Of a stretch of 64,000 bases of DNA, positions 22,827 to 35,396 are shown one piece after another. The notes under the pieces were generated by a model. That model saw only the letters and a list, made by a program, of their open reading frames with translations, was not told the origin of the DNA and ran no database searches. Where the stretch lies: positions 15,444-79,443 of the forward strand of contig CAYGKV010000003.1 in assembly GCA_964350885.1 (NCBI GenBank). The letters run 5' to 3'. Position numbers and translations under genes: made by a program. The first letter of the stretch is position 1. Each line of letters begins with the position of its first letter. Source of the stretch: an uncultured Candidatus Saccharibacteria bacterium. Its GTDB lineage: Bacteria > Patescibacteriota > Minisyncoccia > Phycocordibacterales > UBA2100.

Positions 22827-24164
22827 ATGAAATTCAGCGATATTCGCATCAAGAGGGTCGCTTCGGCCGCGCAATCTGTGGCCTCCCATGCTGTGGCAGC
22901 GGGTACCGTTGCCGCTGAGACCGTTGCGAGCGCTGCATACATAACCTTTCCTGACGGCGACGTGCTCGGGCAAGAGTTGCGGAAAGGCGCTTCGCTCTCC
23001 GTTATAAAACTTGTCGATGCACTTATTCAGTGTGCGTATAGCGCGCGTGCATCTGATGTGCATCTCGATCCGCGGGCGGATGGTGTTACTGTCCGATTGC
23101 GTGTAGACGGCGTCTTGAAGGACGTGCAAAAAATCCCAACGCATATTCACAGCGAAGTTATTTCGCGCCTCAAGATCCTCTGCGGATTGCGTACCGACGA
23201 GCACCAAGCGGCGCAAGACGGGCGCTTCAAGGTATCGCTCGAAGATGGGGCAAGTGTCGATGTGCGTACCTCCATCGTGCCGACGTACTACGGTGAGAAT
23301 GCTGTGTTGCGTCTTCTCTCCGATCAGGCTGAGGAATTTACGCTCGATACGCTCGGATTTACACCGGAAAATCGTGCGAAGATCTTGCACGCCATCCAGA
23401 GACCTTTTGGTATGATACTTGCGACCGGCCCCACGGGAAGCGGGAAGACCACGACGCTCTACACACTTGTGAAAATGCTCAATAAGCCGGACGTATCGGT
23501 CATCACCATCGAAGATCCTATTGAGTACTCTGTTTCCGGGATCAATCAGATACAGGTCAACAACCGCACCGGGCTCACGTTTGCCAACGGCTTGCGCTCG
23601 CTCCTCCGCCAAGATCCCAACGTCATCATGGTCGGCGAGATCCGCGATATGGAGACGGCAGGCCTTGCGGTCAATACCGCACTTACCGGCCACCTTATTC
23701 TCTCCACCTTGCACACCAACGATGCGCCGACGACATTGCCACGTCTGCTCGACATGAAAGTCGAACCGTACCTCATCGCTTCCACCGTGAACATCGCGAT
23801 AGGTCAGCGGCTCGTGAGGAAAATTTGTACTCACTGCAAAGAGGAACACAAACTCTCTGAGGCAGAAGCAAAAAGCCTCTCCGAGGTCATGCCCAAAGAT
23901 CTTCTGGCACAGCACTCCACATTCTATTCGGGCAAGGGGTGCGACGCGTGCGGCAACACGGGCTACAAGGGCCGCGCAGGCTTGCACGAGGTCATGGTCA
24001 TTGATGCCCCCATCCGCGAAGCGATACTCCGCAAAGCCTCGGCGTCTGAGATCCGCGACATCGCGCTCCAACAGGGGATGAAATCGATCGTGGTGGATGG
24101 TTTTTACAAAGCGGCACACGGTATCACGACCATTGAAGAAGTGCTGCGCATGCGCTATGAGTAA
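22827..24164 (+). CDS. pilB: Type IV pilus assembly ATPase PilB / GspE family
   Basis: Walker A ILATGPTGSGKTTTLY, Asp and His boxes, and a tetracysteine motif CTHCKEEH...CDACGNTG. Confidence 0.85.
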   Translation: MKFSDIRIKRVASAAQSVASHAVAAGTVAAETVASAAYITFPDGDVLGQELRKGASLSVIKLVDALIQCAYSARASDVHLDPRADGVTVRLRVDGVLKDVQKIPTHIHSEVISRLKILCGLRTDEHQAAQDGRFKVSLEDGASVDVRTSIVPTYYGENAVLRLLSDQAEEFTLDTLGFTPENRAKILHAIQRPFGMILATGPTGSGKTTTLYTLVKMLNKPDVSVITIEDPIEYSVSGINQIQVNNRTGLTFANGLRSLLRQDPNVIMVGEIRDMETAGLAVNTALTGHLILSTLHTNDAPTTLPRLLDMKVEPYLIASTVNIAIGQRLVRKICTHCKEEHKLSEAEAKSLSEVMPKDLLAQHSTFYSGKGCDACGNTGYKGRAGLHEVMVIDAPIREAILRKASASEIRDIALQQGMKSIVVDGFYKAAHGITTIEEVLRMRYE

Positions 24165-25365
24165 GTACACAAAAATCCGTGATGCCGCCGACGCGCGCCT
24201 CCTCAAAATGTTGCGGCCCTTCGCGAAGATTTCCTCGAAGCGCCCGGCAGAAGGGAAGTCGCGTACCACGCGCATCCACAAGGACTCCGTTCCCGAAAAG
24301 AAGCGTCCCTCGATGTTGCGTTTCCCGATACAGGACCAGATCTTTTTCGCCAAGCGATTGGGGATGATATTGCGCGCTGGCATGCCGATTATGGAAGGGC
24401 TCCACATGCTCGGGAGCGAGACACGCACGGGCTCGGCGAAATACATATTCCAGAGCCTTATCATCGATGTATCCAACGGCCAGCCGCTCTCCTCGGGGCT
24501 TGGTAAGTTCCAGCGCATTTTCGGAGAATTTTGCATCAATATCGTGAAAGTGGGGGAGAGCTCGGGCACTCTGCACGAAAATCTCGACTACCTTGCCGAA
24601 GAACTCAAAAAGAAACAGACGTTGAGGCGCAAGGTCATCGGCGCTCTCATGTATCCCGCGGTCATCGTCTTTGCGACGGTCGGCATCACGGTCATGCTCA
24701 CGGTCTATATCTTCCCCAAGATAATTCCCATTTTCCAAAGCGTGAAAGCCACGCTCCCGCTCTCGACGCGCATGCTCATCGTCATTTCCAGTTTTTTGAG
24801 CACCTGGGGCTGGTGGCTTCTTGGCGGACTGTTTGTATTTGTGATCGGATTCGTTGTGCTGATGAGAATGGTTCCGCTCTTCCACCTGTGGATGGACGTG
24901 ATTCTCTTGCGCATCCCGCTTTTGGGAAAATTATCTTCATATTACAATCTCGCCAACAGCGCGCGCACGCTCTCGCTACTTCTCAAGAGCGATGTGGGGG
25001 TGGTGCCCGCGATGGAGCTCGTAGCGGCAAGTACACGCAATCACGTGTATCGTCGAGCTCTGTACAAGGCCGCGGAGCACATCACTAAGGGACAAAAAAT
25101 CTCTTTGCAACTGCAGAGTTCACCGCGTCTCTTTCCACCCCTCATGACACAAATGGTCTTGGTAGGTGAATCAACTGGCAATCTCAGCGGCTCGCTCATG
25201 TTTCTTTCTGACATGTACGAAGAGCAGATAGATGAACTCACCAAGAACCTAACGACTCTTATCGAGCCAGTTCTCATGATCGTGATGGGGCTTCTCGTCG
25301 GATTTATCGCAATTTCTATCATTACCCCCATCTACTCCATCACGCAAAGCCTCACGCCACAATGA
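24157..25365 (+). CDS. pilC: Type IV pilus inner-membrane platform protein PilC / GspF family
   Basis: Two T2SS-F domains and 3 TM helices; the start ATG at 24157 overlaps the pilB stop (ATGAGTAA). Confidence 0.85.
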   Translation: MSKYTKIRDAADARLLKMLRPFAKISSKRPAEGKSRTTRIHKDSVPEKKRPSMLRFPIQDQIFFAKRLGMILRAGMPIMEGLHMLGSETRTGSAKYIFQSLIIDVSNGQPLSSGLGKFQRIFGEFCINIVKVGESSGTLHENLDYLAEELKKKQTLRRKVIGALMYPAVIVFATVGITVMLTVYIFPKIIPIFQSVKATLPLSTRMLIVISSFLSTWGWWLLGGLFVFVIGFVVLMRMVPLFHLWMDVILLRIPLLGKLSSYYNLANSARTLSLLLKSDVGVVPAMELVAASTRNHVYRRALYKAAEHITKGQKISLQLQSSPRLFPPLMTQMVLVGESTGNLSGSLMFLSDMYEEQIDELTKNLTTLIEPVLMIVMGLLVGFIAISIITPIYSITQSLTPQ

Positions 25366-25865
25366 TGCATATGAATGTAATGGGAAGACAAAGGGGGGTA
25401 ACTTTTTTTGAAGTACTCATTGTTATGGGCATCTTTGCGCTGGTTAGTAGTTTCGCTCTTCTGGTCAGTATGCAAAGTTATCGAAGCGCAAATTTTCGTT
25501 CCGACCGCAATCTTCTGGTCGCAGCGCTCCAGCGTGCTCGCGCACAATCCATGAACAACGTGTGCCTCGGCACTGTCTGCACTGATGGAAAAGCGCACGG
25601 TGTCGCCATCCAGCCAATCGATCACCTGGATTCTTTCGTCGTATTTCAGACTTCAAGTGGAGGTGGGTACACAGGGCGGGCTTCTTCCGACATAGCGCAT
25701 GACGCGATATTTCCTGTAAACCCGAATTCCGTCATCACGCAAACCACGATCGTATTTACGCAACTTTCTGGTACTGCTCCCGCATCCGTTATAGAAATCG
25801 ACCAAGCGGGATATGATTCTGACGTCCACGTCGAAACGAATGGCCGGATTTGGTGGACAATTTAA
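25362..25865 (+). CDS. Prepilin-type N-terminal cleavage/methylation domain protein (minor pilin)
   Basis: RG|VTFFEVLIVMGIFALV: Gly at -1, Glu at +5, followed by a hydrophobic helix. Confidence 0.6.
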   Translation: MMHMNVMGRQRGVTFFEVLIVMGIFALVSSFALLVSMQSYRSANFRSDRNLLVAALQRARAQSMNNVCLGTVCTDGKAHGVAIQPIDHLDSFVVFQTSSGGGYTGRASSDIAHDAIFPVNPNSVITQTTIVFTQLSGTAPASVIEIDQAGYDSDVHVETNGRIWWTI

Positions 25866-25868
25866 TGT

Positions 25869-27383
25869 ATGAATCGCGGATTTTCCATTATTGAACTCCT
25901 CATCGCGATGTCGTTGGCCACGATAGTCATGAGCGGTGTTGTGGTCGGCACGGTGGGAAGCGTCGGGAGCTTCGGCTCTGCGATAGGGGGTAAGCAGACA
26001 GTCGTGAGCGATGGTGAGATCAACACCATGGCACTCCACAAAGCGCAGGATCTCATCGAAGGGGCTGCTGCAGTAGCGCGTACAAATTATTCCGCGGTCA
26101 TTCCGACGACCGCCGTCGATTCCTCGGGAGGCCTAACATATACGAAGACACTCACCATTCCCACGGCATATGCCACACAGTGTTCGCAGAGTATCGCGAG
26201 CACCGTGTCTTGGAGCGCCACCTACGGCCGCACGCTCTGGGTCGGCGCGACAACCACCATTACAAATATTCCTGAGATGCTCGCACTCGGGGGTGATTGC
26301 GCGATCACACCACCACCCATCGGCGGATGGAATCCACCTCATATCTATGCGTACGACACTTTTTCTGGCAAACCAACTGCACTGGACGCGCTGGAGCATA
26401 TAGCATATATGGGCGAAGATAACTCACCCTGGCTACGTATTGCCGATGCGCGCACTGTACCTCTTCCAATTCCGCACAACGGCGATTTATTTATTCCTCT
26501 TCCATACGCCAATAACTTCAACTCGACTGGCAAAGTCCTCGATCAGATAAATGATGTTGACGTGTATAAACATGAAGCTAGTGGGAAAGTGTACGCATTT
26601 GTCGCCACAGCAAGCACGACAGCGCAACTTGTGGTGATTGACGTTACAGATATTCAGAATCCCACCATTGCCGTTAACGGTACCGGTATTCTTGCCAAAC
26701 GGAACCTTACCGATGTTACCGCAACTGATTCAACAGCGTGGGGTTGGCGCGTTTATTACTACAACGGAAAGCTATATATAACTGCACGAGAGACGGCGGG
26801 CCCCGAACTACATATCTTCGATGTCACGGATCCAAGAGACCCGACGGAAATTGGACGGAAAGAATTAAATACTACCGTAAATGACTTTGTGATAAGCAAT
26901 GGCCTCGGATATTTTGCGGTTCAAAGCGATGCGACAGGTCCGCTGCGGGTTTATAACGTGGCTACTCCGACGGGTATCACCGAAGTCGTTGGTGCGCGGG
27001 GCAACATTGCTGGAACTGAGAATGGGTTATCGATATTTTTGATCGGTCCTCGCCTCTATTTCGGCCGTCAAAAAAATTCCGGCCCTGAATTTTATATGTT
27101 AGACGCAAGTAGCCCTCTCACGGCATCAGGAGGGTTGCCGATTCTCGCATCGAAAGAGATTGGAGACGACGTAACTGATTTGCGAGTTGTTGGTCCGTTT
27201 GCATTTGCAGCCGTTAAGCACGCAAACGAAGAGTTTCAAGTATGGCCTTCGGACCTTTCGGGGCCCGCTATCAACATCTACAACTTCGGAAACGTCATCA
27301 ACGCAGGATTTGATTATAATAATGAGTGGTTTTTTGTCACTGGCGGATCGACTCCTAATTTTAAAATACTTTACAGTCCTTGA
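25869..27383 (+). CDS. Pilin-like protein fused to an LVIVD-repeat beta-propeller (candidate pilus tip adhesin)
   Basis: N-terminus MNRG|FSIIELLIAMSLATIV (class III signal). The C-terminal ~330 aa carry repeated LVVIDVTDIQNP / LHIFDVTDPRDP / LRVYNVATP / FYMLDASSP motifs. Confidence 0.6.
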   Translation: MNRGFSIIELLIAMSLATIVMSGVVVGTVGSVGSFGSAIGGKQTVVSDGEINTMALHKAQDLIEGAAAVARTNYSAVIPTTAVDSSGGLTYTKTLTIPTAYATQCSQSIASTVSWSATYGRTLWVGATTTITNIPEMLALGGDCAITPPPIGGWNPPHIYAYDTFSGKPTALDALEHIAYMGEDNSPWLRIADARTVPLPIPHNGDLFIPLPYANNFNSTGKVLDQINDVDVYKHEASGKVYAFVATASTTAQLVVIDVTDIQNPTIAVNGTGILAKRNLTDVTATDSTAWGWRVYYYNGKLYITARETAGPELHIFDVTDPRDPTEIGRKELNTTVNDFVISNGLGYFAVQSDATGPLRVYNVATPTGITEVVGARGNIAGTENGLSIFLIGPRLYFGRQKNSGPEFYMLDASSPLTASGGLPILASKEIGDDVTDLRVVGPFAFAAVKHANEEFQVWPSDLSGPAINIYNFGNVINAGFDYNNEWFFVTGGSTPNFKILYSP

Positions 27384-27384
27384 T

Positions 27385-27867
27385 ATGAACCGCGGATTCA
27401 CGCTCATCGAGACGCTCGTCTACCTCGCGCTCTTCGCGCTTATTATCGGCGGCTTGGTTGTTACCACCTACCTTCTCTTCCAAACGAGCGATCGCTACCA
27501 GACCCGTGCGACGATGCAAGAAGAGAAAAATTTTATACTCGCGAAAATCACGTGGGCCCTCTCACAAGCTCGGTCTGTGTGTGATCCAGCAGCTAATACC
27601 TCGGGCACGACGCTCTCTGTCGTTACTCTCGGTGGGACGTGCTCTCCTCCAGACATCACGGTCGCTCTTTCGGGGTCAGATGTACAGTGGGGAGGCGTGG
27701 CGCTCAACAATGCGAGCGTGCGCGTGGATCGTCTTCTATTCATTCACACCTACGCAGGAGGTAGCAATCCCGATAGTGTCGAGGTAGGGCTTACGATAAG
27801 CGCCAACACCCCGACAGGCATGCAGATTTCTGAGAGAGCTTCGACGACGCGCTACATACGAAAATGA
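27385..27867 (+). CDS. Prepilin-type pseudopilin
   Basis: MNRG|FTLIETLVYLALFALIIGG. Confidence 0.6.
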   Translation: MNRGFTLIETLVYLALFALIIGGLVVTTYLLFQTSDRYQTRATMQEEKNFILAKITWALSQARSVCDPAANTSGTTLSVVTLGGTCSPPDITVALSGSDVQWGGVALNNASVRVDRLLFIHTYAGGSNPDSVEVGLTISANTPTGMQISERASTTRYIRK

Positions 27868-28331
27868 AACGCCAAGAACACGAGAGAGGGTTTATTGCGC
27901 TGATGTCGGTCATGGTCATTTCAGCTGTTTTGTTGGTGCTCTTGTTTACTCTCGGCGCGTCCTCGTTCCTGAATCGTTTTGATGTGCTTGATTCCCAAAA
28001 CAAACGGGTGAGCCTCGCACTCGCGGAAGCATGCGTGAATATGGCAATGATCAATATCGCACAAGATTCTGATTACGGTATCACGCCATCGTTACCATCT
28101 GCTGGTGAATGCGTGGGGGTGTCGGACGCATGTGTCTCTGGATCAAAAAAGATCTGCAAAATCTGCCAAGTTACGATTGTGGGCAGCGAAAAAGAAATTA
28201 TTACTCGTGCCGCCTATGGAGGCACGTACACCAATCTCAGAATACGAGGCACCCTTGGCTCCACCAACTTTTCAGTGAGCCGGTGGGAGGAATTTACCCC
28301 TTATTCTGGGTCATGTACTACAACACCGTAA
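27864..28331 (+). CDS. Pilin-like protein lacking Glu+5 (PilX/GspK-like minor pilin)
   Basis: ERG|FIALMSVMVISAVLLVLLF with Met at position +5; overlaps the upstream stop by 4 bp. Confidence 0.5.
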   Translation: MKRQEHERGFIALMSVMVISAVLLVLLFTLGASSFLNRFDVLDSQNKRVSLALAEACVNMAMINIAQDSDYGITPSLPSAGECVGVSDACVSGSKKICKICQVTIVGSEKEIITRAAYGGTYTNLRIRGTLGSTNFSVSRWEEFTPYSGSCTTTP

Positions 28332-28407
28332 GCCCTTGCGCGCCCCTGGGGAGCATGGTATAAAGCACGTCTTACGAGCAGATTAATAATTTAAGCGCTC
28401 ATAACCT

Positions 28408-28875
28408 ATGTTTAATAACAAGTCAAAGGTGGGTAATAAAGGGTTTACCCTCATCGAAATCCTCGTGGTTATCGCAATAATCGCGATACTTGCTGCAATC
28501 GTACTCGTGGCTATCAATCCAGCCAAACGCTTCGAAGACGCGCGCAACAGCCAGCGAAAGGCCAATGTCGAGGCAATCTTGAGTGCTATTCAGCAAAATA
28601 TGGTTGATAACATCGGCATAACAACCTGTACGACGATCACAGCCACTCCACAGAACATCGCGTCATCAGGTGGTGTAGATCTTACTGGTTGCTTGGCTCC
28701 GTACCTCGCAGTCTTACCAGTCGACCCAAAGACTGGTACTTGGAATGCAGGACCACCACTAGTCTACGACACAAAATACTCAGTGTCGCAGAACGCCACT
28801 ACCAAGCAGATTACCGTTACAGCCCCAGCTGCTGTTACTGATGGTGTACCAGCGGGAATCTCAATCACTCGCTAA
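28408..28875 (+). CDS. Type IV major pilin (PilA-like)
   Basis: KG|FTLIEILVVIAIIAILAAIVLVAINP, the canonical N-terminus; 155 aa; followed by a strong terminator. Confidence 0.75.
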   Translation: MFNNKSKVGNKGFTLIEILVVIAIIAILAAIVLVAINPAKRFEDARNSQRKANVEAILSAIQQNMVDNIGITTCTTITATPQNIASSGGVDLTGCLAPYLAVLPVDPKTGTWNAGPPLVYDTKYSVSQNATTKQITVTAPAAVTDGVPAGISITR

Positions 28876-28895
28876 ATTCTCTCAGCGACGACCCA

Positions 28896-28931
28896 CAAAA
28901 ACCCCGCTCCGCAAGGACGGGGTTTTTGTTT
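28896..28931 (+). terminator. Rho-independent terminator of the pilus operon
   Basis: cacaaaaaccccg-ctccgcaagga-cggggtttttgtttt. Confidence 0.6.
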
Positions 28932-28960
28932 TCCCCCACATCCGATTTATACCCCCCCTT

Positions 28961-29000
28961 CATACACACAACCCCCACGGTCGTAGGTCTCGTATGTAGG
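28961..29000. repeat. Conserved hairpin repeat, copy 1 (core ACAACCCCCACGGTCGTAGG)
   Basis: catacacacaacccccacggtcgtaggtctcgtatgtagg: the core is shared with the copies at 29101 and 29765; the arms are imperfectly complementary. Confidence 0.55.
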
Positions 29001-29006
29001 CAGAAT

Positions 29007-29070
29007 AAAAGGGGAAAAATGAAAAGAAGAGGGAGAGAATAGAAAAGAGGGGCGAAAGGTGAAGGAAGAA
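29007..29070 (+). repeat. Polypurine (A/G) tract, about 64 nt and over 90% purine
   Basis: aaaaggggaaaaatgaaaagaagagggagagaatagaaaagaggggcgaaaggtgaaggaagaa. Confidence 0.5.
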
Positions 29071-29100
29071 TGTTGGAGGGCCTCAATATGTCCTCCAGCA

Positions 29101-29150
29101 AAATACACACAACCCCCACGGTCGTAGGAGTTGTATGTATTTTGTGTGAT
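29101..29150. repeat. Conserved hairpin repeat, copy 2, 12 bp upstream of the regulator start
   Basis: aaatacacacaac-ccccacggtcgtaggA-gttgtatgtattttgtg: a 10-bp stem at 9/10 with a 16-nt loop containing the conserved core. Confidence 0.6.
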
Positions 29151-29161
29151 ACGATTTTGGC

Positions 29162-29752
29162 ATGGGAACTCTTGAAAAAGAGGCGTACGCCATTCGTCGC
29201 CGTGGATACTTGCAGAATGCAGTACTCGCAACCGTCGGCATTGCGGGTATCTTGGCAGTCGCTGTGGTGGCGCCCAATACGCTACAGCTTCTCGGAAAGT
29301 TTGGGCCTCTAAAAAGATTTAATGAACAAGCGCGCTCGACGGCAAGCCGTCTCGCGCGCAAAGGATTTATCACGTTTGTCGAGATCAACGGCAGGAAATG
29401 CCTGCGGATTACGGAGGCAGGGAAGCGCGAGCTGGAGAGGGTGGAAAGAGAAGCGCTGTTGCGCGCCGGCCCCATAAGGCCGAAGCGGTGGGATCGTCGC
29501 TGGCGTATGGTCGTTTTCGATATTCCAGAAAAACGTCGTCGCACACGCGACAGGCTTCGAGAGATGGTATCTTCGTATGGCTTTTTGAGATTGCAGGATA
29601 GTGTGTGGGTGCACCCCTACGATTGCGAAGACGTCATCACACTCTTAAAGGCTGATCTCGGGGTGGGGAAGGACGTGCTGTACGCTATTGTGGAGAAAAT
29701 AGAAAACGACACGTGGATCCGTAAGCACTTCAAACTCCCTCTCTCTTCGTAA
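29162..29752 (+). CDS. Membrane-tethered winged-helix regulator with a PaaX-middle-domain / Cas2-like fold C-terminus
   Basis: A TM helix (LQNAVLATVGIAGILAVAVVAP); a wHTH (LARKGFITFVEINGRKCLRITEAGKREL); then WDRRWRMVVFDIPEKRRRTRDRLREMVSSYGFLRLQDSVWVHP, which aligns with E. coli PaaX WDGKWLLLLSEG...QLIWQGFGALAPSLMASP and with the Cas2 VxxYDV..KRR..L pattern. This call rests on recalled sequences, not a search. Confidence 0.55.
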   Translation: MGTLEKEAYAIRRRGYLQNAVLATVGIAGILAVAVVAPNTLQLLGKFGPLKRFNEQARSTASRLARKGFITFVEINGRKCLRITEAGKRELERVEREALLRAGPIRPKRWDRRWRMVVFDIPEKRRRTRDRLREMVSSYGFLRLQDSVWVHPYDCEDVITLLKADLGVGKDVLYAIVEKIENDTWIRKHFKLPLSS

Positions 29753-29764
29753 CCCCTCCCGCAT

Positions 29765-29812
29765 CACACATACATACAACCCACACGGTCGTAGGTCTTG
29801 TGTGTATGTGTG
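29765..29812. repeat. Conserved hairpin repeat, copy 3, 13 bp downstream of the regulator stop
   Basis: cacacatacatacaaccc-acacggtcgtagg-tcttgtgtgtatgtgtg. Confidence 0.6.
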
Positions 29813-29907
29813 AATTTTCTCAATCCAAACAACTGTCCAAGCAGGAGTCCAAGAAAACGGATGACTATCTGTTTCGCAGGCGGTGCCATATCCTGGAGAG
29901 GACTCCT

Positions 29908-30336
29908 TCAGTGGCTGGAACGGAAAAAAGCTTTCACGACAATAAAAAGCGAGATTAGAAAATAGACGGCAAACAAAATGCCGATAAAAAGAGCTATTAG
30001 CGAACTCCCCATCGCGCTTGCAATGCCCAAACTACTCCCGCCAGTCTCGTTTGTAAGCCAGAGTACCACAGCTATCATTGAGGGTATCCACCATCTTGAA
30101 AAACGAAACCAAGTTAGAAAAACGGGATTTGGTAGAAAGAAAAAGATAGGCGTTAGAAGGACTAAGGGAAGCAAGGGAGACAGTCCGAGGACAGTATATT
30201 GACAAAGATTAATCGGGTACCCGCTCTCAAGTCGGTAGAGACAAGAGTATCCCGGACGCATTTCAAAGAGAATTATAAGAACGATCGTTATGAGAGCGGC
30301 AATGCCAACCAGAAAGACAGTTCTCTTGCTTAGCAT
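29908..30336 (-). CDS. Hypothetical membrane protein (4 TM)
   Basis: 142-aa hydrophobic ORF with hydrophobicity-consistent codon usage. Confidence 0.4.
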   Translation of the reverse strand: MLSKRTVFLVGIAALITIVLIILFEMRPGYSCLYRLESGYPINLCQYTVLGLSPLLPLVLLTPIFFFLPNPVFLTWFRFSRWWIPSMIAVVLWLTNETGGSSLGIASAMGSSLIALFIGILFAVYFLISLFIVVKAFFRSSH

Positions 30337-30345
30337 ACTTCCATT

Positions 30346-33282
30346 TCATCTTAACCCAATTATGACTGAATAAGTCTTACCATCCTCCAACTGTGCATAA
30401 ATACGATACCAGTACCCGGGCATTAAACCCTTTGTGCTCCAGTTATAAATGTACTGCTGGCTCGTGCCGTCCCATCGGTACGAAGTGCCACTCGTGCCGG
30501 CAACTGCGTACACGGGCTCGTCCACGGGTGCGTTCAGTGGCGAGAGTCTGACTGGAGTTATCCAAACGGGTGAAGCTGATGATTGAATAGGAGTGCCAGC
30601 GGTATTTTTGAGTTGAAACTTCACAGGTACGGTACTGCCGCCCTTAAACACGCTCGGCGTGAGTGCGGGGTTAATCGTAGGGTCATCGATGGGCTGTAGG
30701 AATCCGGTCCACAGATATTCTATTTTGAGCGTTCCTGCCACAAACTCCGTGAATTCGTAGTCATGTGAGGTAAGAGTGCCGATAGTGCATGTGATGGGGT
30801 AGATTCCAACCAGGCTCGCGCTGGTCGCCGTCGTTGAGCAACGCGCGCTTCCCGCGACGTCGTTGCTTGAGGGTGTGTCATCGCCGACGAATCCGCTCAG
30901 TGTCCACGTGAGAGGTGGAATTACTCCACCGATCATCATCGTCTTGTTGGCAGTCGTTAGAGTTAGTTTCGGTTTTGGTAGCACTACGGTGTCGTCCAGC
31001 TTAGGCACCACAATGTGCTCAACAATGCCGTCGCCGTTTTTGTCGATGAGGAGTGGATTTTCTTCAGACAGATCGATCGATGTCTCTATCGAGACGATGG
31101 TGTCGGGCGTCGTTGGCATATCTTTCCATGTGCTGCTTGCAACGACCGTATCACCTCGGAGCTGCTCAGCGCGGAAGGTGAAGGTGCCTGTCTCGTAGCC
31201 ATCCATCGTGATATGAAGCGAGGAGGTGGCATCTGTGAAAAGATATTTCACGTCACCGAACTCTGTGTAATACGTGCCGGGGATTTGTTCTTCCACCTGG
31301 CCGGTAGTCGTTGAAATGCCAGTGTGACGGCCCTGATTGTCGAATAGATCGAGCGTGAGCGGGGAGTGAAGGGAGTAGCGGAGGCGAGTGCCAGGGAACG
31401 AGGGCGATTCAGTGGTCAGGTATGAGTAATTTGAAATCGGCGACAGCTCATTTGTAACTGTATCGGAAATAAATGACAGCAGTTCCTGTATCTCGAGAAT
31501 ATCTGCATGACCGAAAGAGAGGAGGCCACCGAGTGTGGCAATCGGATGATGTTTGTTGTAGTCGTAGATGTTTGCCCAATAATTCACCGCACCTGCGGCA
31601 GCGCTCCACAAAGCGCTTGGCACAACCACGGTGCCATCGCCATCAATTGTGAAATTTGCTTCGGGCTTCACGCCCGCACCTTTTTGTTTGTATGTAATTC
31701 CGCTCACGGTCGTTGGCACGCCCCATCCGGCTATTTGGATCAAGTCTATTCCTGTTGGAGGAACCCAGTTGTCGAGATTGGCATGCAACGTTTCCGCTGC
31801 CGACAGGAGCGAATCGCTCATCTGGATGGGCTGATCTTTGTCACCCGTCTGGGAGTCGCCTCTCCCATAGGTATCGGTGAGAAATTGATGCAATGCGGGT
31901 CCTGAGTGGATTTCGTTTCCATACCTTGCTATCCAATCTGTCAGTGATGCATCGAATGTAACGACTGGATCATCCACATATGTGAAGTAATTGGCGGATG
32001 GTAGTAATTGATAGAACATTGGGGACGTACTTGCAAAAGTACGCACTGTCTCTTCAGAAAGAATGAACGAAATCACATCGGCAGGGAGCCCTTGATCATA
32101 TCCATGCAGTCCGGCAGCCACGGCCATCGGTGTACCTGCCTGCGGCACGGCCACAAAAATCATTTTGTCGATGAGGTCAGAAGCTTCTGCGCCAAGTACT
32201 TCGGTGAGTTGTTTGGCAAGTAATCCGCCGTTGGAGTGCGCTATGACTGTTACCTTCCCAGATTTTGAAGAGCCAGCGAGTCTCCGCAATTCCTGAATGA
32301 CGTACGGAGTGGATGTGGCGCGTTGGTTACCGGAATAATACAGCTTTCCACCCACCTCGTTTCCATACGCGAGGATGTCGTCGAGGGAGAGCCGCCAGTC
32401 GTAGGCCATGGGTTGCCAATCGTTTATATGGCCCTGATCTTTCAAGTCATCCATTTTTGAGATAAAGGACAGGTATATATTTTTGCCGGTCGGGAGTTCA
32501 TCAAGCACGTCGCCGATCTTTGTGTAGATCTCGGGATGGGCACTCGAACCGTCAGCGCTCATGAAGAGGTCTTGCACGTCGCCATTGTTGAGTGGCTCCC
32601 ACAGCTTTTGTTCAGGAACTTCGACTACCTGCGGTCGATACAAGCGGCTCGATTCGATACCGGGCAAGAAGAGCACGTTGGAAAAACAGTTTTGTGTGCA
32701 GAGCATTGGGGCCGGGCCGGGTTGGCCAGAAACCACGAAGTACCCCATCGTGGATGTCCCGTAGAAGGTTACGCCCGAACCCCCAACTTTCGATATCCGT
32801 AATGACGCGTGATCATAGACCAGGGGCAACGTCGTCGAAGCCGCTGCAGCAGCAGGGTTTCCTGCATCATCAGCTTGTCGGTAATTAAACAGACGGGGAG
32901 TAATTCCGGTAAATGGCGGAACGGCTACGGTCGTTTGGTACTGCTGTCCGGGTACACTCCAATTGTTGGTATTGGGGCAGGGCTTCGTCTCGGCCGCGTC
33001 AAGCCAACACAGAAGTCGGAGGCCTGCACGGTTAAACGGTGCAAAGAACGGGAATGTCCGATCGTCAAGGGCTATAATTTCGACGGTGTCTACTCGTGAA
33101 CCTCCGAGCGTGTTTGGGAGTGCAATTTGCCAGTAATTTCCAGTAGTGGTGATGGTTGTATAGATCTGTGAGCGATCTGTTTGCGAGAGTAGAACGTCGG
33201 CAAATGTATCGAGGGGGGATGCGAGCAGAACAAAAATTGTACCGAGGAGAGGGGAGGCGATACGCGACTGCGCGAGTCTCAT
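30346..33282 (-). CDS. Large secreted LCAT-like (lecithin:cholesterol acyltransferase / PF02450-type) alpha/beta-hydrolase lipase with shared C-terminal domain
   Basis: Signal MRLAQSRIASPLLGTIFVLLASPLDTFA; an LCAT N-motif VLFLPGIESSRL; the YDWRLS hallmark; a nucleophile elbow VTVIAHSNGGLLA (AHSxG as in Bacillus LipA); and the shared C-terminal domain ending ...QQYIYNWSTKG... Confidence 0.65.
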   Translation of the reverse strand: MRLAQSRIASPLLGTIFVLLASPLDTFADVLLSQTDRSQIYTTITTTGNYWQIALPNTLGGSRVDTVEIIALDDRTFPFFAPFNRAGLRLLCWLDAAETKPCPNTNNWSVPGQQYQTTVAVPPFTGITPRLFNYRQADDAGNPAAAAASTTLPLVYDHASLRISKVGGSGVTFYGTSTMGYFVVSGQPGPAPMLCTQNCFSNVLFLPGIESSRLYRPQVVEVPEQKLWEPLNNGDVQDLFMSADGSSAHPEIYTKIGDVLDELPTGKNIYLSFISKMDDLKDQGHINDWQPMAYDWRLSLDDILAYGNEVGGKLYYSGNQRATSTPYVIQELRRLAGSSKSGKVTVIAHSNGGLLAKQLTEVLGAEASDLIDKMIFVAVPQAGTPMAVAAGLHGYDQGLPADVISFILSEETVRTFASTSPMFYQLLPSANYFTYVDDPVVTFDASLTDWIARYGNEIHSGPALHQFLTDTYGRGDSQTGDKDQPIQMSDSLLSAAETLHANLDNWVPPTGIDLIQIAGWGVPTTVSGITYKQKGAGVKPEANFTIDGDGTVVVPSALWSAAAGAVNYWANIYDYNKHHPIATLGGLLSFGHADILEIQELLSFISDTVTNELSPISNYSYLTTESPSFPGTRLRYSLHSPLTLDLFDNQGRHTGISTTTGQVEEQIPGTYYTEFGDVKYLFTDATSSLHITMDGYETGTFTFRAEQLRGDTVVASSTWKDMPTTPDTIVSIETSIDLSEENPLLIDKNGDGIVEHIVVPKLDDTVVLPKPKLTLTTANKTMMIGGVIPPLTWTLSGFVGDDTPSSNDVAGSARCSTTATSASLVGIYPITCTIGTLTSHDYEFTEFVAGTLKIEYLWTGFLQPIDDPTINPALTPSVFKGGSTVPVKFQLKNTAGTPIQSSASPVWITPVRLSPLNAPVDEPVYAVAGTSGTSYRWDGTSQQYIYNWSTKGLMPGYWYRIYAQLEDGKTYSVIIGLR

Positions 33283-33396
33283 ACGGCATGTATACCACAC
33301 CGACGTTTTTCGGTGCTCGTGTCCCTGTGGATTGCCGACGTACACACCGAACCTACGCTATAGCGTAGGTTCGGTGTTTTCATTGCACAGGAATAA

Positions 33397-34155
33397 TTAT
33401 GTGGCGCACGCGAGGAGAAGATCGTTGATTACTTTGAGGGTTTCGGACGGACCGGAGACCTCGTGCGTCTGGATGCCAGTTTTGATAACGACCTCGTCGT
33501 TGCCGCCGGGGTAGAGCGCATCGCCTACATAGAGCATTTCGGAAGTCGGGATGCCAAGCTTTTTCGAGAACCAGTTTACTCCATACGCTTTGTTGATTCC
33601 CTTGTGCGTGATGTCTATCGTGGTCATGCCGCCCATCAGTATTTCAAACTGCGGGATCTTCTTTTCGAGGACGACTTTGAGTTTTTTTCGTTTTTCTTGG
33701 TCGGGATCCCATGCCGCTTTTTCTTCATACGATGCCTGTAGTCCAATAGTAGCAAGCGCTATCTGCGCATCGCGGTCGATGATTTCGGGCGCGTGTTCGG
33801 GATGTTTTCCAAGGACGCCGGTCTCCGCGAGCGCCTCGTTGATCGCGGTGCGTATCGTCGCGCGATCGCTCACGGAAAGCCCGAGACTGTATGCGATGCT
33901 CCAGGCGCCGTTCTCCCAGGTGTAGCACTCGGCGGTGCTGTTGGGGAAAATATAGAATTGAGAAATGTGCGGAGAGTGTTCAAGGTAGGAGATAAATTGA
34001 TCTTTAATGCGCGGAAAACCGGCGGCGCTCATGATGGCAATCGGTATGAGCTCCAGTAGTTTTCCAAGCCTGTCTACCATCTCCGGCTTGGGCGGTTGAA
34101 AGCTCTCTGCCAGTGTGTCGTCGAGGTCGAATATGGCGACACGGGGACAATTCAT
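33397..34155 (-). CDS. HAD-IIB family hydrolase (eukaryotic phosphomannomutase-like)
   Basis: DxD motif VAIFDLDDTLA and the HAD motif IV YVGDALYPGGNDE; 252 aa. Confidence 0.7.
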   Translation of the reverse strand: MNCPRVAIFDLDDTLAESFQPPKPEMVDRLGKLLELIPIAIMSAAGFPRIKDQFISYLEHSPHISQFYIFPNSTAECYTWENGAWSIAYSLGLSVSDRATIRTAINEALAETGVLGKHPEHAPEIIDRDAQIALATIGLQASYEEKAAWDPDQEKRKKLKVVLEKKIPQFEILMGGMTTIDITHKGINKAYGVNWFSKKLGIPTSEMLYVGDALYPGGNDEVVIKTGIQTHEVSGPSETLKVINDLLLACAT

Positions 34156-34193
34156 CCAGAGAGCGTACCACGAACGTGATAAAATAATAGTAC

Positions 34194-35396
34194 GTGAAAA
34201 CGCGCATTCTCATGTTTGGGTGGGAGTTTCCTCCGTACAACAGCGGAGGTTTGGGCGTTGCGTGTTTGGGGCTTACCAAAGCACTCTCCGATATCGGCAT
34301 CCAGGTGATTTTTGTCATGCCGAAAAAGCTCGACATCCAAACGCCGTGGGCGCGCATGATATTTGCTGAGACGGGCATAGAAGGTCATGCGGTCAATTCG
34401 ATTTTGAAACCATATCTTACGAGCGGAAGCTACGGTCGGGAGAAGGAGGGAATCTACGGCGAGAATCTATTGAGTGAAGTGCGTCGGTATGCCAGCCTCG
34501 CTGTCGACATCGCCCGCGAGGAGCACTACGATGTTATTTATGCCCACGACTGGCTTTCTTTTGGCGCAGGAATCGAAGCTAAGCGCGTTACCCATAAGCC
34601 GCTCATCGTGCATGTGCACGCGACAGAGTTTGATCGCTGCGGGGGGATGGGGGGAATAAATCCCGACGTGTTTGCAATCGAGAAAGAGGGGATGGAAGCG
34701 GCAGATTGCGTCATCGCCGTCTCTGAACTCACCAAGAATATTATTGTAAAAGAGTATGGCATCCCCGCCCAGAAAGTGCGCGTGGTATACAACGGCATCG
34801 ACGATACTACGGCCCCCTCGGGCAGCGGATCGTTGTCACGTTTGCGATCGCTGAAGGCGTCGGGGTACCGGCTCGTCCTCTTCATCGGTCGTATAACTCT
34901 TCAGAAAGGTCCGGATTATTTCTTGCGCGCGGCGAAGCGGGTGCTCGAACACAACTCGCAGGTTCTCTTCATTCTTTCGGGTACTGGTGACATGGAGAAT
35001 GAGGCAATGCATCTTGCCGCGGAACTGGGAATCGCTGGGCAGGTATTTTTCACTGGTTTTCTTGAGGGATACGAACGGCATGAGGTGTACAAAGCGGCAG
35101 ATCTTTTCGTGATGCCTTCGGTTTCCGAGCCGTTTGGCATCACCGCGCTTGAAGCGATGCGATTGGGGACACCAGTGCTCATGTCTAAGCAGTCGGGAGT
35201 CTCGGAAGTCGTGCGGCATGCACTCAAGGTTGATTTTTGGGATGTTGATGAGATGGCCAACAAAATTCTCTCTGTGGTCGGTCATCCGGGATTGCGCGAA
35301 GCGCTCGCACAAAACGCAGCCAAAGAAGCCGAACGACTCACATGGTCAGACGCTGCGCAAAAAGTGGGGGGAATTGTGCAAGAGCTAGTCGGTTAG
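34194..35396 (+). CDS. GT4-family glycosyltransferase (glycogen synthase-like)
   Basis: N-terminus MFGWEFPPYNSGGLGVACLGL; the GT-B C-terminal domain LVLFIGRITLQKG...FVMPSVSEPFGITALEAM (EX7E). Confidence 0.8.
   Translation: MKTRILMFGWEFPPYNSGGLGVACLGLTKALSDIGIQVIFVMPKKLDIQTPWARMIFAETGIEGHAVNSILKPYLTSGSYGREKEGIYGENLLSEVRRYASLAVDIAREEHYDVIYAHDWLSFGAGIEAKRVTHKPLIVHVHATEFDRCGGMGGINPDVFAIEKEGMEAADCVIAVSELTKNIIVKEYGIPAQKVRVVYNGIDDTTAPSGSGSLSRLRSLKASGYRLVLFIGRITLQKGPDYFLRAAKRVLEHNSQVLFILSGTGDMENEAMHLAAELGIAGQVFFTGFLEGYERHEVYKAADLFVMPSVSEPFGITALEAMRLGTPVLMSKQSGVSEVVRHALKVDFWDVDEMANKILSVVGHPGLREALAQNAAKEAERLTWSDAAQKVGGIVQELVG

What the first reader, a model, noticed from the sequence alone, without database searches (positions are those of the whole stretch)
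28931..29830. Membrane-tethered wHTH + Cas2-like/PaaX-middle-domain regulator bracketed by three copies of a conserved hairpin repeat
Seen: three copies of an imperfect hairpin whose loop core ACAACCC(CC/ACA)CGGTCGTAGG is conserved (28961-29000, 29101-29150, 29765-29812), while the stem arms co-vary only loosely. Copy 2 ends 12 bp before the start codon of the 29162..29752 gene and copy 3 begins 13 bp after its stop. The window has no other hit to the core. The encoded protein combines a TM helix, a winged helix and a C-terminal segment (WDRRWRMVVFDIPEKRRRTRDRLREMVSSYGFLRLQDSVWVHP) that by memory aligns both to the PaaX middle domain and to the Cas2/VapD ferredoxin-like N-terminus. Inference: the repeats are operators of a self-contained regulatory module, a structured small RNA, or a miniature mobile unit carrying the regulator. 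A membrane-anchored PaaX/Cas2-fold regulator with no paa, cas1 or array context has no obvious described function.
Basis: partly seen in the sequence, partly recalled or inferred. Interest (0 to 1): 0.7.

Follow-up and report, generated by a model that had tools for sequence, protein, structure and literature searches.

The report
Self-regulating PaaX-like gene with flanking operators
A small DNA-binding protein gene, common in ultra-small Patescibacteria and often mislabelled "Cas2", is bracketed in almost every genome by matching 38-bp palindromes that are most likely its own binding sites, so it looks like a self-contained autoregulatory module whose wider job is still unknown.

Summary
Three copies of a 37-38-nt imperfect palindrome (28962-28999, 29103-29140, 29770-29807) bracket a 196-aa gene (29162-29752). 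The protein has a PadR/PaaX-type winged helix, a PaaX_M/Cas2-like domain and a very hydrophobic N-terminal stretch.

The same layout recurs in about 80 orthologous loci from other genomes. Upstream and downstream copies match within a genome and differ between genomes.

The site has two parts: an almost invariant C-N4-G centre, and outer arms at half-site positions 10-19. Its length matches the E. coli PaaX operator, TGATTC-N27-GAATCA.

It behaves as double-stranded DNA rather than as an RNA hairpin:
- symmetry runs through the centre;
- there is no G·U excess on the sense strand;
- there are no T-runs after the copies;
- the asymmetric centre flips orientation.

The upstream copy overlaps the promoter in two registers (dyad 18 or about 40 nt before the ATG). 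A -10 box ends 6-7 nt before the start codon, which implies a leaderless mRNA.

Protein residues co-vary with operator bases.

Best reading: an autoregulated PaaX-like repressor without an effector domain, with twin flanking operators. The role of the downstream copy, membrane anchoring and any wider regulon remain unresolved. It is not CRISPR, REP/MITE or a terminator.

The parts
28895..28929 (+). Canonical intrinsic terminator of the upstream pilin gene: a perfect 12-bp stem followed by a T-run. It marks the upstream boundary of the module and shows what terminators look like in this genome.
   Evidence: (I8)
28962..28999 (.). Copy 1: distal upstream palindrome (dyad 28980|81), with a degenerate right arm. 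It is the weakest of the three by the family matrix.
   Evidence: combined score 16.4, below the shuffle maximum of 20.9
29000..29098 (+). Spacer between copies 1 and 2: a purine-rich tract followed by a small hairpin (about 29073-29096). The relative L002 carries one more palindrome-plus-spacer unit here.
29103..29140 (.). Copy 2: promoter-proximal operator. The dyad at 29121|22 lies 40 nt before the ATG, so the site covers about -60 to -22 of the inferred promoter.
   Evidence: 27.9
29147..29155 (+). Extended -10-like element TGATACGAT. It ends 6 nt before the ATG, which implies a leaderless transcript starting at or next to 29162.
   Evidence: family-wide spacing (TANNNT ends 6-7 nt before the start codon in 50 of 66 loci)
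29162..29752 (+). Gene for the 196-aa protein. Its parts are an N-terminal charged tail (1-17), a charge-free hydrophobic stretch (about 18-45), a recognition helix and wing (50-83), a linker helix (85-101) and a PaaX_M/Cas2-like ferredoxin-type domain (114-190).
29770..29807 (.). Copy 3: downstream operator copy. The dyad at 29788|89 lies 36 nt after the stop, in the gap between convergent genes.
   Evidence: 23.0
33342..33379 (.). Candidate fourth site: a near-perfect palindrome ACACCGAACCTACGCTATAGCGTAGGTTCGGTGT of the family's TATA-centre type. It lies 79 nt upstream of the ATG (33281, minus strand) of a 978-aa LCAT/MBG_2 protein gene. Whether the same protein binds it is unknown.
   Evidence: (27.7)

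Best explanation
The palindromes are double-stranded DNA operators of the protein encoded between them. That protein is a two-domain PaaX-like regulator without an effector domain: a winged helix plus a Cas2-like dimerisation domain.

Proposed binding mode (inferred): a dimer sits on each 38-bp site. The Cas2-like dimer lies over the C-N4-G centre and the two winged helices reach the outer arms about 15 bp to either side.

The promoter-proximal copy overlaps the core promoter of a leaderless gene, so binding there most likely represses the gene's own transcription, as PaaX does at Px.

The copy just after the stop codon binds the same protein. Its role is inferred only. It may strengthen repression by looping the roughly 650-bp gene between two occupied operators. 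Alternatively it may act as a protein roadblock that insulates the gene from neighbouring transcription.

Shown here: the repeats; their family-wide conservation on both flanks; their bipartite symmetric anatomy; their fixed relation to the -10 box; their near-absence elsewhere; and the fold of the protein.

Inferred: that this protein is the binder; the sign of regulation; leaderless initiation; looping or roadblock; and membrane anchoring.
For: 1. Conservation on both flanks. In 58 dereplicated orthologous loci, the upstream and downstream flanks of the same locus align with a median score of 25, against 9 for flanks from different loci. 41 of 58 exceed the 99th percentile of the cross-locus scores.

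2. Anatomy of 134 distinct sites. C-N4-G is present in 130. The central 4-mer is self-complementary in 52 of 134, against 6% by chance. Complementarity is 0.81-0.99 at half-site positions 2-4 and 0.71-0.93 at positions 10-19. It drops to 0.41-0.63 at positions 5-9 and to chance level beyond position 20.

3. Geometry. The 38-bp length matches the E. coli PaaX operator TGATTC(N27)GAATCA, and PaaX represses its own promoter Px by steric hindrance (PMC9493321).

4. Relation to the promoter. The dyad-to-ATG distance clusters at 18 and at 38-42 nt, about two helical turns apart. A TANNNT box ends 6-7 nt before the start codon in 50 of 66 loci, and a Shine-Dalgarno-like motif is present in only 5 of 66.

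5. Restriction to the gene. A family matrix finds 130 hits next to the gene and 3 elsewhere in 222 kb. Searching each locus with its own palindrome gives one credible distant copy in 234 kb.

6. Protein-DNA co-variation.
- Residue 126 is R with G/C-type centres (32 of 36) and K with TATA-type centres (19 of 23), across about 10 class switches on a neighbour-joining tree.
- D130 tracks DNA positions 4-5.
- Residue 55, at the start of the recognition helix, tracks arm positions 15 and 17.

Against: No binding data exist; the link between protein and site rests on association and co-variation, and phylogeny partly confounds the co-variation.

A regulator whose only detectable sites flank its own gene has no evident output.

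No known PaaX-type system has an operator immediately after the stop codon, and its purpose here is conjecture. Centre-to-centre distances show no helical phasing, although phasing is not expected for 650-bp loops.

In the -40 register the site sits where class II activators bind, so activation cannot be excluded for that class.

If the hydrophobic segment is a type II signal anchor, the DNA-binding domains would lie outside the cell and the model would fail. Flank charges favour a C-terminus-inside topology in only 78 of 120 homologues.
Confidence: 0.68

Rival explanations
1. The palindromes act as RNA or single-strand hairpins. They would be terminators or insulators on both sides of the gene, or mRNA elements bound or cut by the Cas2-like (VapD/Cas2 RNase-type) domain.
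For: Copies 2 and 3 fold strongly, at -20.8 to -32.1 kcal/mol with z-scores of -4 to -7.7. The downstream copy lies in the 3' untranslated region, right after the stop, in most loci. Some Cas2 and VapD proteins are RNases (my own knowledge).
Against: - T-runs follow only 4 of 70 downstream copies, while this genome has canonical terminators with T-runs, such as 28895-28929.
- 62% of mismatches are non-wobble. G:T on the sense strand is not enriched (96, against 143 A:C), and downstream copies show 58 against 61.
- Symmetry runs through the 'loop': TATA, GGCC, CATG and ATAT centres account for 51 of the 52 self-complementary central 4-mers among 134 sites (one TTAA).
- Half-site positions 5-9 are poorly complementary.
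- The asymmetric centre occurs as GGTC 38 times and GACC 31 times, regardless of strand.
- The upstream copy lies upstream of, or across, the inferred start site.
- The better folding on the minus strand seen in the window is not general.
Confidence: 0.1
2. The unit is, or was, a small mobile or recombining cassette. The palindromes would be recombination or transposition ends, and the wHTH-Cas2-like protein the end-recognising factor.
For: - The gene is bracketed by repeats.
- Neighbours are not conserved across the family: upstream neighbours lie on the + strand 26 times and the - strand 25 times, and the pilin neighbour is seen only in close relatives.
- The number of palindrome-plus-spacer units differs between the window (2 upstream) and L002 (3).
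- In L049 a 110-nt duplication that includes the palindrome brackets an insert carrying a tRNA.
- In the window, the two-gene block that L002 lacks lies between copy 3 and the 33342-33379 palindrome.
Against: - The position after the type IV pilus operon is kept in the window, L002, L003 and L006, at 60-84% protein identity.
- There is one gene copy in 64 kb.
- No recombinase or transposase domain is present.
- The tight, register-specific integration with the -10 box is a regulatory signature, not an end signature.
- The two palindromes bracketing the extra block have different centres.
Confidence: 0.07
3. The palindromes are operators of a different, unlinked factor. The encoded protein would be membrane-anchored with its domains outside the cell and would do something else, for example handle nucleic acids at the cell surface next to the pilus or DNA-uptake genes.
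For: A charge-free hydrophobic run preceded by RRR/KKK looks like a signal anchor, and in 27 of 120 homologues the N-terminal flank is the more positive one. In this lineage the gene follows a type IV pilus operon. The domain keeps Cas2-like signature residues, and NCBIfam cas2 scores 31 bits against a cut-off of 24.5.
Against: The palindromes are tied to this gene in about 80 genomes whatever the neighbours. Residues 126, 130 and 55 co-vary with operator bases. The pilus linkage is confined to close relatives. The C-terminal flank is the more positive one in 78 of 120.
Confidence: 0.08

Closest known systems
PaaX, repressor of the phenylacetate catabolon (E. coli W, PDB 8a39; TIGR02277)
   Same: It has an N-terminal winged helix followed by the Cas2-like central domain (Pfam PF20803, E 1.5e-20). 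It is the best Foldseek match over 184 columns. Its operator is a long palindrome of the same length (TGATTC-N27-GAATCA, 39 bp, against 38 bp here) that overlaps its own promoter and mediates autorepression.
   Different: The window protein has no C-terminal PaaX_C effector domain; it ends at residue 196. It scores 46 bits against the TIGR02277 cut-off of 264.55. No paa genes are nearby. Its site has a conserved C-N4-G centre as well as arms. A second operator lies just after the stop codon. The N-terminal part is hydrophobic. Its operator sequences are different and evolve fast.
CRISPR-associated Cas2 (TIGR01573 / PF09827)
   Same: The beta1-alpha1-beta2 part of the domain matches Cas2 models. 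It retains the FD(I/V) aspartate and the Q-S-V-W motif positions. Many members are named Cas2 in NCBI.
   Different: It is fused to a winged helix. There is no CRISPR array in 64 kb and no cas1 among the ten neighbouring ORFs scanned (22827-35393). The match covers only 38 residues. Pfam is just below its cut-off (23.0 against 23.8). The domain more probably dimerises and contacts DNA than acts in spacer acquisition.
PadR-family winged-helix repressors (e.g. Rv3488, B. subtilis PadR)
   Different: Dimerisation here would be through a Cas2-like domain rather than the PadR C-terminal helix. The site is much longer and bipartite. Helices 1-2 are replaced by a charge-free hydrophobic stretch.
Repressors that use an auxiliary operator downstream of the promoter for looping (LacI O1/O2, GalR OE/OI, DeoR)
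   Same: Two copies of the same operator bracket the regulated promoter and transcription unit (my own knowledge of these systems).
   Different: Here the second site lies beyond the stop codon of the regulator's own gene and the loop would enclose the whole gene. Neither looping nor tetramerisation has been shown.

Membership tests
PaaX (phenylacetate catabolon repressor, TIGR02277) | N-terminal winged helix plus central Cas2-like domain (PF20803) | tested here: met
PaaX (phenylacetate catabolon repressor, TIGR02277) | C-terminal PaaX_C effector domain and full-length equivalog score | tested here: not met
   The protein is 196 aa long with no PaaX_C hit. TIGR02277 scores 46.1 bits against a cut-off of 264.55, matching profile positions 33-139 of 279 only.
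PaaX (phenylacetate catabolon repressor, TIGR02277) | Association with paa catabolic genes | tested here: not met
   The neighbours are pilins, T2SSE/F, an LCAT-like protein, a PMM-like protein and glycosyltransferases. Neighbours vary across the family.
PaaX (phenylacetate catabolon repressor, TIGR02277) | Palindromic operator of about 39 bp overlapping its own promoter | tested here: met
   There is a 38-bp palindrome whose dyad lies 18 or about 40 nt before the ATG. The PaaX site is TGATTC(N27)GAATCA (PMC9493321). Only the geometry is shared; the sequence differs, and binding was not tested.
CRISPR-Cas adaptation protein Cas2 | Match to Cas2 sequence models | tested here: inconclusive
   TIGR01573 scores 31 bits against a cut-off of 24.5. 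Pfam PF09827 scores 23.0 against 23.8. Only residues 115-152 match.
CRISPR-Cas adaptation protein Cas2 | Linked cas1 and a CRISPR array | tested here: not met
   The window has no array-like direct repeats. The neighbours scanned are not cas genes. PADLOC hits are to the Cas2 models only, for this one protein.
Dispersed repeats (REP / MITE) | Many copies at unrelated loci in the genome | tested here: not met
   The core occurs only at the three sites in 64 kb. There are 3 distant hits against 130 gene-adjacent hits in 222 kb of orthologous loci. Whole genomes could not be scanned.
Rho-independent terminators | G+C-rich stem followed by a T-run | tested here: not met
   At least 6 T in 8 nt follow only 4 of 70 downstream copies. 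Canonical terminators exist nearby for comparison.
Membrane-anchored transcription factors | A transmembrane segment, with the DNA-binding domain on the cytoplasmic side | tested here: inconclusive
   The 19-aa Kyte-Doolittle mean is at least 1.67 in all 120 homologues (median 2.16). The charge-free run has a median length of 29 aa. The C-terminal flank is the more positive in 78 of 120. However, AlphaFold builds the stretch as helices 1-2 of the winged helix at pLDDT 42-64. No dedicated TM predictor or topology assay was available.

The most novel reading that the evidence does not exclude
The protein is truly membrane-anchored and acts only in cis. It would be made from a leaderless mRNA and inserted co-translationally, and would then clamp the two operators that flank its own gene. 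That would pin this chromosomal locus to the membrane, giving a minimal self-encoded chromosome-membrane tether or insulated domain in ultra-small cells, rather than controlling a regulon. The Cas2-fold dimer would read the operator centre base-specifically (R126 with G/C centres, K126 with TATA centres), a DNA-reading role not described for this fold.
Probability: 0.12. Interest if true: 0.75.

Novelty: new variant of a known kind. Interest (0 to 1): 0.5.

Why it matters
Patescibacteria have very few transcription factors and almost none has been characterised. This family is large: 435 clusters at 50% identity with E of 1e-30 or better. Its architecture is uniform, and it is routinely mislabelled 'CRISPR-associated endonuclease Cas2' because it passes NCBI's cas2 cut-off. 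That mislabelling inflates apparent CRISPR content in these genomes.

The comparative data yield a ready-made operator model: a 38-bp bipartite palindrome with candidate specificity residues 126, 130 and 55. This can be tested directly by EMSA or DAP-seq.

It would also give a first handle on promoter architecture in this group, namely the -10 box and leaderless starts.

The twin-operator layout and the possible membrane anchor are unusual. They would be worth an experiment, but they are not yet evidence of a new mechanism.

Tried and rejected
1. An exact search for the core (ACAACCCNCACGGTCGTAGG) in 185,579 species genomes found only the 84%-identity relative's MAG.

2. Rfam gave no family at the locus, only two tRNAs elsewhere.

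3. RNA reading. The window's copies fold better on the minus strand, which suggested an antisense RNA. Across 134 sites the A:C excess is confined to upstream copies (82 against 38) and absent downstream (61 against 58). I attribute the upstream excess to A/T-rich promoter elements embedded in the right arm.

4. Helical phasing of the 613-734-bp operator-to-operator distance gave Rayleigh p of 0.33 or higher at periods of 10-11.3 bp, which is uninformative.

5. There is no GC-skew switch at the locus, so no origin or terminus signal.

6. There is no second family member in the window by tblastn or by a profile search.

7. A strict palindrome finder with a mismatch penalty missed many imperfect sites. 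I replaced it with symmetry counts and a position matrix.

8. Sequence search of the PDB gave only weak hits, the best being 3kfw at E 0.013. Fold search was needed.

9. The AFDB fold library was unavailable.

10. Literature searches for PaaX or Cas2-like proteins in Patescibacteria or the Candidate Phyla Radiation found nothing.

11. Integron attC idea, considered and dropped without a formal test. In attC sites the outer ends are conserved and the centre varies. Here the centre is the most conserved part.
Full report
**Observation**

The window holds three copies of a 37-nt repeat, at 28962-28998, 29103-29139 and 29770-29806, with 89-92% identity. The exact core ACGGTCGTAGG occurs only there. 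With one mismatch allowed, shuffles give a mean of 0.71 matches and none reaches the 5 observed.

Each copy is an imperfect palindrome. Copies 2 and 3 pair further outward, to 29099-29144 and 29764-29813. The copies bracket an ORF at 29162-29752. The pilin gene upstream ends at 28875 and has its own canonical terminator with a T-run at 28895-28929. Downstream genes converge on the minus strand.

**The protein**

- Pfam gives PaaX_M (the 'PaaX central Cas2-like domain') at E 1.5e-20. Cas2 falls just under its cut-off.
- NCBIfam's cas2 model is passed (31 bits against 24.5) through a 38-residue match. This explains why sources name relatives 'CRISPR-associated endonuclease Cas2'.
- The PaaX equivalog model is far from met, at 46 bits against 264.55.
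- Two AlphaFold runs give a confident ferredoxin-like domain (residues 114-190, pLDDT 78-95). Residues 1-53 are poorly modelled. The secondary-structure order is that of a winged helix.
- Foldseek's only strong PDB hit is E. coli PaaX, 8a39 (E 1.2e-6, 184 columns).
- The window has no CRISPR array, and the ten neighbouring ORFs scanned (22827-35393) include neither cas nor paa genes.
- The family is large and uniform in length. It has 871 hits in the 90%-identity clustered database. In the 50%-identity library, 435 representatives reach E of 1e-30 or better, almost all 180-200 aa long. Named members come from Kaiserbacteria, Paceibacterota and Patescibacteria.

**Comparative result**

I fetched the two closest relatives (84% identity, L002 and L003) and 80 metagenomic loci with orthologues of 46-62% identity. 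Printing the flanks showed a long palindrome in nearly every locus, both just upstream of the ATG and just after the stop.

Upstream and downstream copies of one genome resemble each other, while the arms differ greatly between genomes. In 58 dereplicated loci, the same-locus upstream-versus-downstream local alignment score has a median of 25. Cross-locus pairs have a median of 9. 41 of 58 same-locus scores exceed the 99th percentile of the cross-locus pairs.

A conservative automatic criterion finds a site on both sides in 52 of 70 loci. Most of the remainder are visible by eye or were removed as duplicates.

L002 has three upstream copies and one downstream copy. L003 has one of each, and its upstream copy has the asymmetric centre inverted.

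**Anatomy of the site**

Across 134 distinct sites aligned on their dyads:

- Position 3 of the half-site is G in 98%, so C-N4-G is present in 130 of 134 sites.
- The central 4-mer is TATA in 40, GGTC in 38, GACC in 31 and GGCC in 6.
- 52 of 134 central 4-mers are self-complementary, against 6% by chance.
- Complementarity between the two halves is 0.81-0.99 at positions 2-4, only 0.41-0.63 at positions 5-9, 0.71-0.93 at positions 10-19, and at chance level beyond position 20.

The element is therefore a 38-bp bipartite palindrome with a centre and two outer arms, often TATCCACA...TGTGGATA. In this lineage the arms are ATACACACAA...TTGTGTGTAT.

The E. coli PaaX operator is TGATTC(N27)GAATCA, 39 bp long, and PaaX represses its own promoter by steric hindrance (review PMC9493321).

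**DNA site or RNA hairpin?**

The window's copies fold well as RNA, and better on the minus strand. This does not generalise.

- Of 633 non-complementary pairs, 62% are non-wobble.
- G:T on the sense strand (96) is not enriched over A:C (143).
- Downstream copies show 58 against 61.
- The A:C excess is confined to upstream copies. There the right arm has to accommodate A/T-rich promoter elements; this explanation is my inference.
- Symmetry extends through what would be the loop.
- Positions 5-9 would form an internal loop.
- The asymmetric centre occurs in both orientations (38 GGTC, 31 GACC).
- T-runs follow only 4 of 70 downstream copies.

These features fit a 2-fold-symmetric protein on duplex DNA.

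**Relation to the promoter**

The dyad-to-ATG distance clusters sharply at 18 nt (21 sites at 17-19) and at 37-42 nt (24 sites). The two registers are about two helical turns apart.

A TANNNT hexamer ends 6-7 nt before the start codon in 50 of 66 distinct upstream regions, and 4-9 nt before it in 57 of 66. Shine-Dalgarno-like motifs occur in only 5 of 66. I infer that transcription starts at or next to the start codon, giving a leaderless mRNA.

This arrangement also seems frequent among other genes of the window, at 15 of 57 ORFs. In the window the element is TGATACGAT at 29147-29155.

In the -18 register the site covers the -10 box and the start, which can only repress. In the -40 register, which applies to the window, it covers about -60 to -22. 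Repression is likely by analogy, but activation is not excluded.

**Restriction to the gene**

- Searching each locus with its own palindrome found one credible copy more than 400 nt from the gene in 234 kb. It is in L049 and belongs to a 110-nt duplication around an insert that carries a tRNA.
- A family matrix combined with a symmetry score gave 130 gene-adjacent hits and 3 distant hits in 222 kb.
- Neighbouring genes are not conserved across the family. The pilus-operon linkage holds only for close relatives.
- The conserved unit is therefore palindrome(s), gene, palindrome(s).

**The fourth site in the window**

The same matrix, built without the window and its close relatives, scores a fourth site at 33342-33379 as highly as copy 2 (27.7 against 27.9; shuffle maximum 20.9). 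The site is a near-perfect palindrome with the family's TATA-type centre.

It lies 79 nt upstream of the ATG of a 978-aa LCAT/MBG_2 gene. At the homologous promoter, L003 has a different palindrome. That palindrome is shared with an adjacent ArsR-like gene that the window lacks.

Whether the PaaX-like protein binds the window's fourth site is open. Its arms resemble the gene-flanking copies (GTAGGT...GTGTGTA), but they are set 2 bp further from the dyad on each side.

**Protein-DNA co-variation**

- Residue 126 lies in the basic start of helix 1 of the Cas2-like domain. It is R in 32 of 36 proteins with G/C-type centres and K in 19 of 23 with TATA-type centres.
- On a neighbour-joining tree the centre class changes about 10 times and residue 126 about 12 times, mostly together. 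There are exceptions: L009, L038, L042, L080, L058 and L082.
- D130 tracks DNA positions 4-5.
- Residue 55, at the start of the recognition helix, is Y with GGATA-type arms and E or D with GTGTAT-type arms.

Phylogeny partly confounds these associations. Still, the pattern fits a dimer centred on the dyad, with the Cas2-like domain contacting the centre and the winged helix contacting the arms.

**The hydrophobic segment**

All 120 homologues have a 19-residue window with a Kyte-Doolittle mean of at least 1.67 (median 2.16). The run free of D, E, K and R has a median length of 29 residues. The C-terminal flank is the more positive in 78 homologues, the N-terminal flank in 27. This supports a transmembrane anchor with the DNA-binding part in the cytoplasm.

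**Mechanism**

The best-supported reading is an autoregulated PaaX-like repressor that lacks an effector domain, with identical operators on both flanks of its own leaderless gene.

- Shown: the repeats, their conservation, anatomy, promoter register and exclusivity, and the fold.
- Inferred: that this protein binds them; repression; leaderless initiation.
- Conjecture: the downstream copy serves looping or a roadblock. Centre-to-centre distances (613-734 bp) show no helical phasing, which is uninformative at this length.

**Rivals**

The rivals, in order of weight, are RNA hairpin or terminator, recombining cassette, and operators of an unlinked factor with an extracytoplasmic protein. They are weighed in the structured fields.

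**Comparison and novelty**

The module works like PaaX at Px, but the protein is not a PaaX equivalog and not a CRISPR Cas2. I found no paper describing this family.

I rate it a new variant of a known kind. It is a widespread, mislabelled Patescibacteria regulator with an unusually clear operator that co-evolves with the protein. It also has an unexplained second operator after the stop codon.

Noticed in passing
window 33342-33379: A near-perfect palindrome, ACACCGAACCTACGCTATAGCGTAGGTTCGGTGT, of the same family type but with a TATA centre. It lies 79 nt upstream of the ATG of the 978-aa LCAT/MBG_2 gene on the minus strand. It is the most symmetric long palindrome in the 64 kb (18 of 19 pairs).
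   Followed up: partly
L003 5150-5185 and 5525-5560 (minus strand): At the homologous LCAT promoter the relative carries a different palindrome (CGGCCTATTCGCGCGAATAGGCCG). It is repeated upstream of an adjacent 88-aa HTH_20 (ArsR-like) gene that is absent from the window. This looks like a regulator and operator swap at one promoter.
   Followed up: partly
window 29000-29098: A purine-rich tract of about 70 nt and a small hairpin (TGGAGGGCC...GTCCTCCA, about 29073-29096) lie between copies 1 and 2. L002 has one extra palindrome-plus-spacer unit here, and the hairpin stem differs there while still pairing.
   Followed up: partly
window 33281-33300 (minus strand), and 15 of 57 ORF starts in the window: A TANNNT box 5-8 nt upstream of the start codon is common in this genome (15 of 57 ORFs), while Shine-Dalgarno-like motifs are rare (8 of 57). 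An example is TGGTATACA-N6-ATG at the LCAT gene. This suggests widespread leaderless initiation.
   Followed up: partly
L049 3088-3200 and 3660-3775: A 110-nt direct duplication that includes the downstream palindrome brackets an insert of about 460 nt carrying a tRNA gene.
   Followed up: partly
window 14070-15571: Six tandem repeats of about 265-320 nt lie inside the 1376-aa ORF 12499-16629. It is a repetitive, probably surface, protein.
   Followed up: no
window 22827-28875: A type IV pilus-like operon (T2SSE ATPase, T2SSF platform and several N_methyl pilins) lies immediately upstream. The same order is seen in L002, L003 and L006 but not in more distant orthologous loci.
   Followed up: partly
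L080 4652-4689: A family-type palindrome, TATTCTTATGTATACCCTATAGGATGCAGATAAGAATA, lies 1.6 kb from the gene. It sits about 95 nt upstream of a GH57-like gene on the opposite strand, a position similar to the window's fourth site.
   Followed up: no
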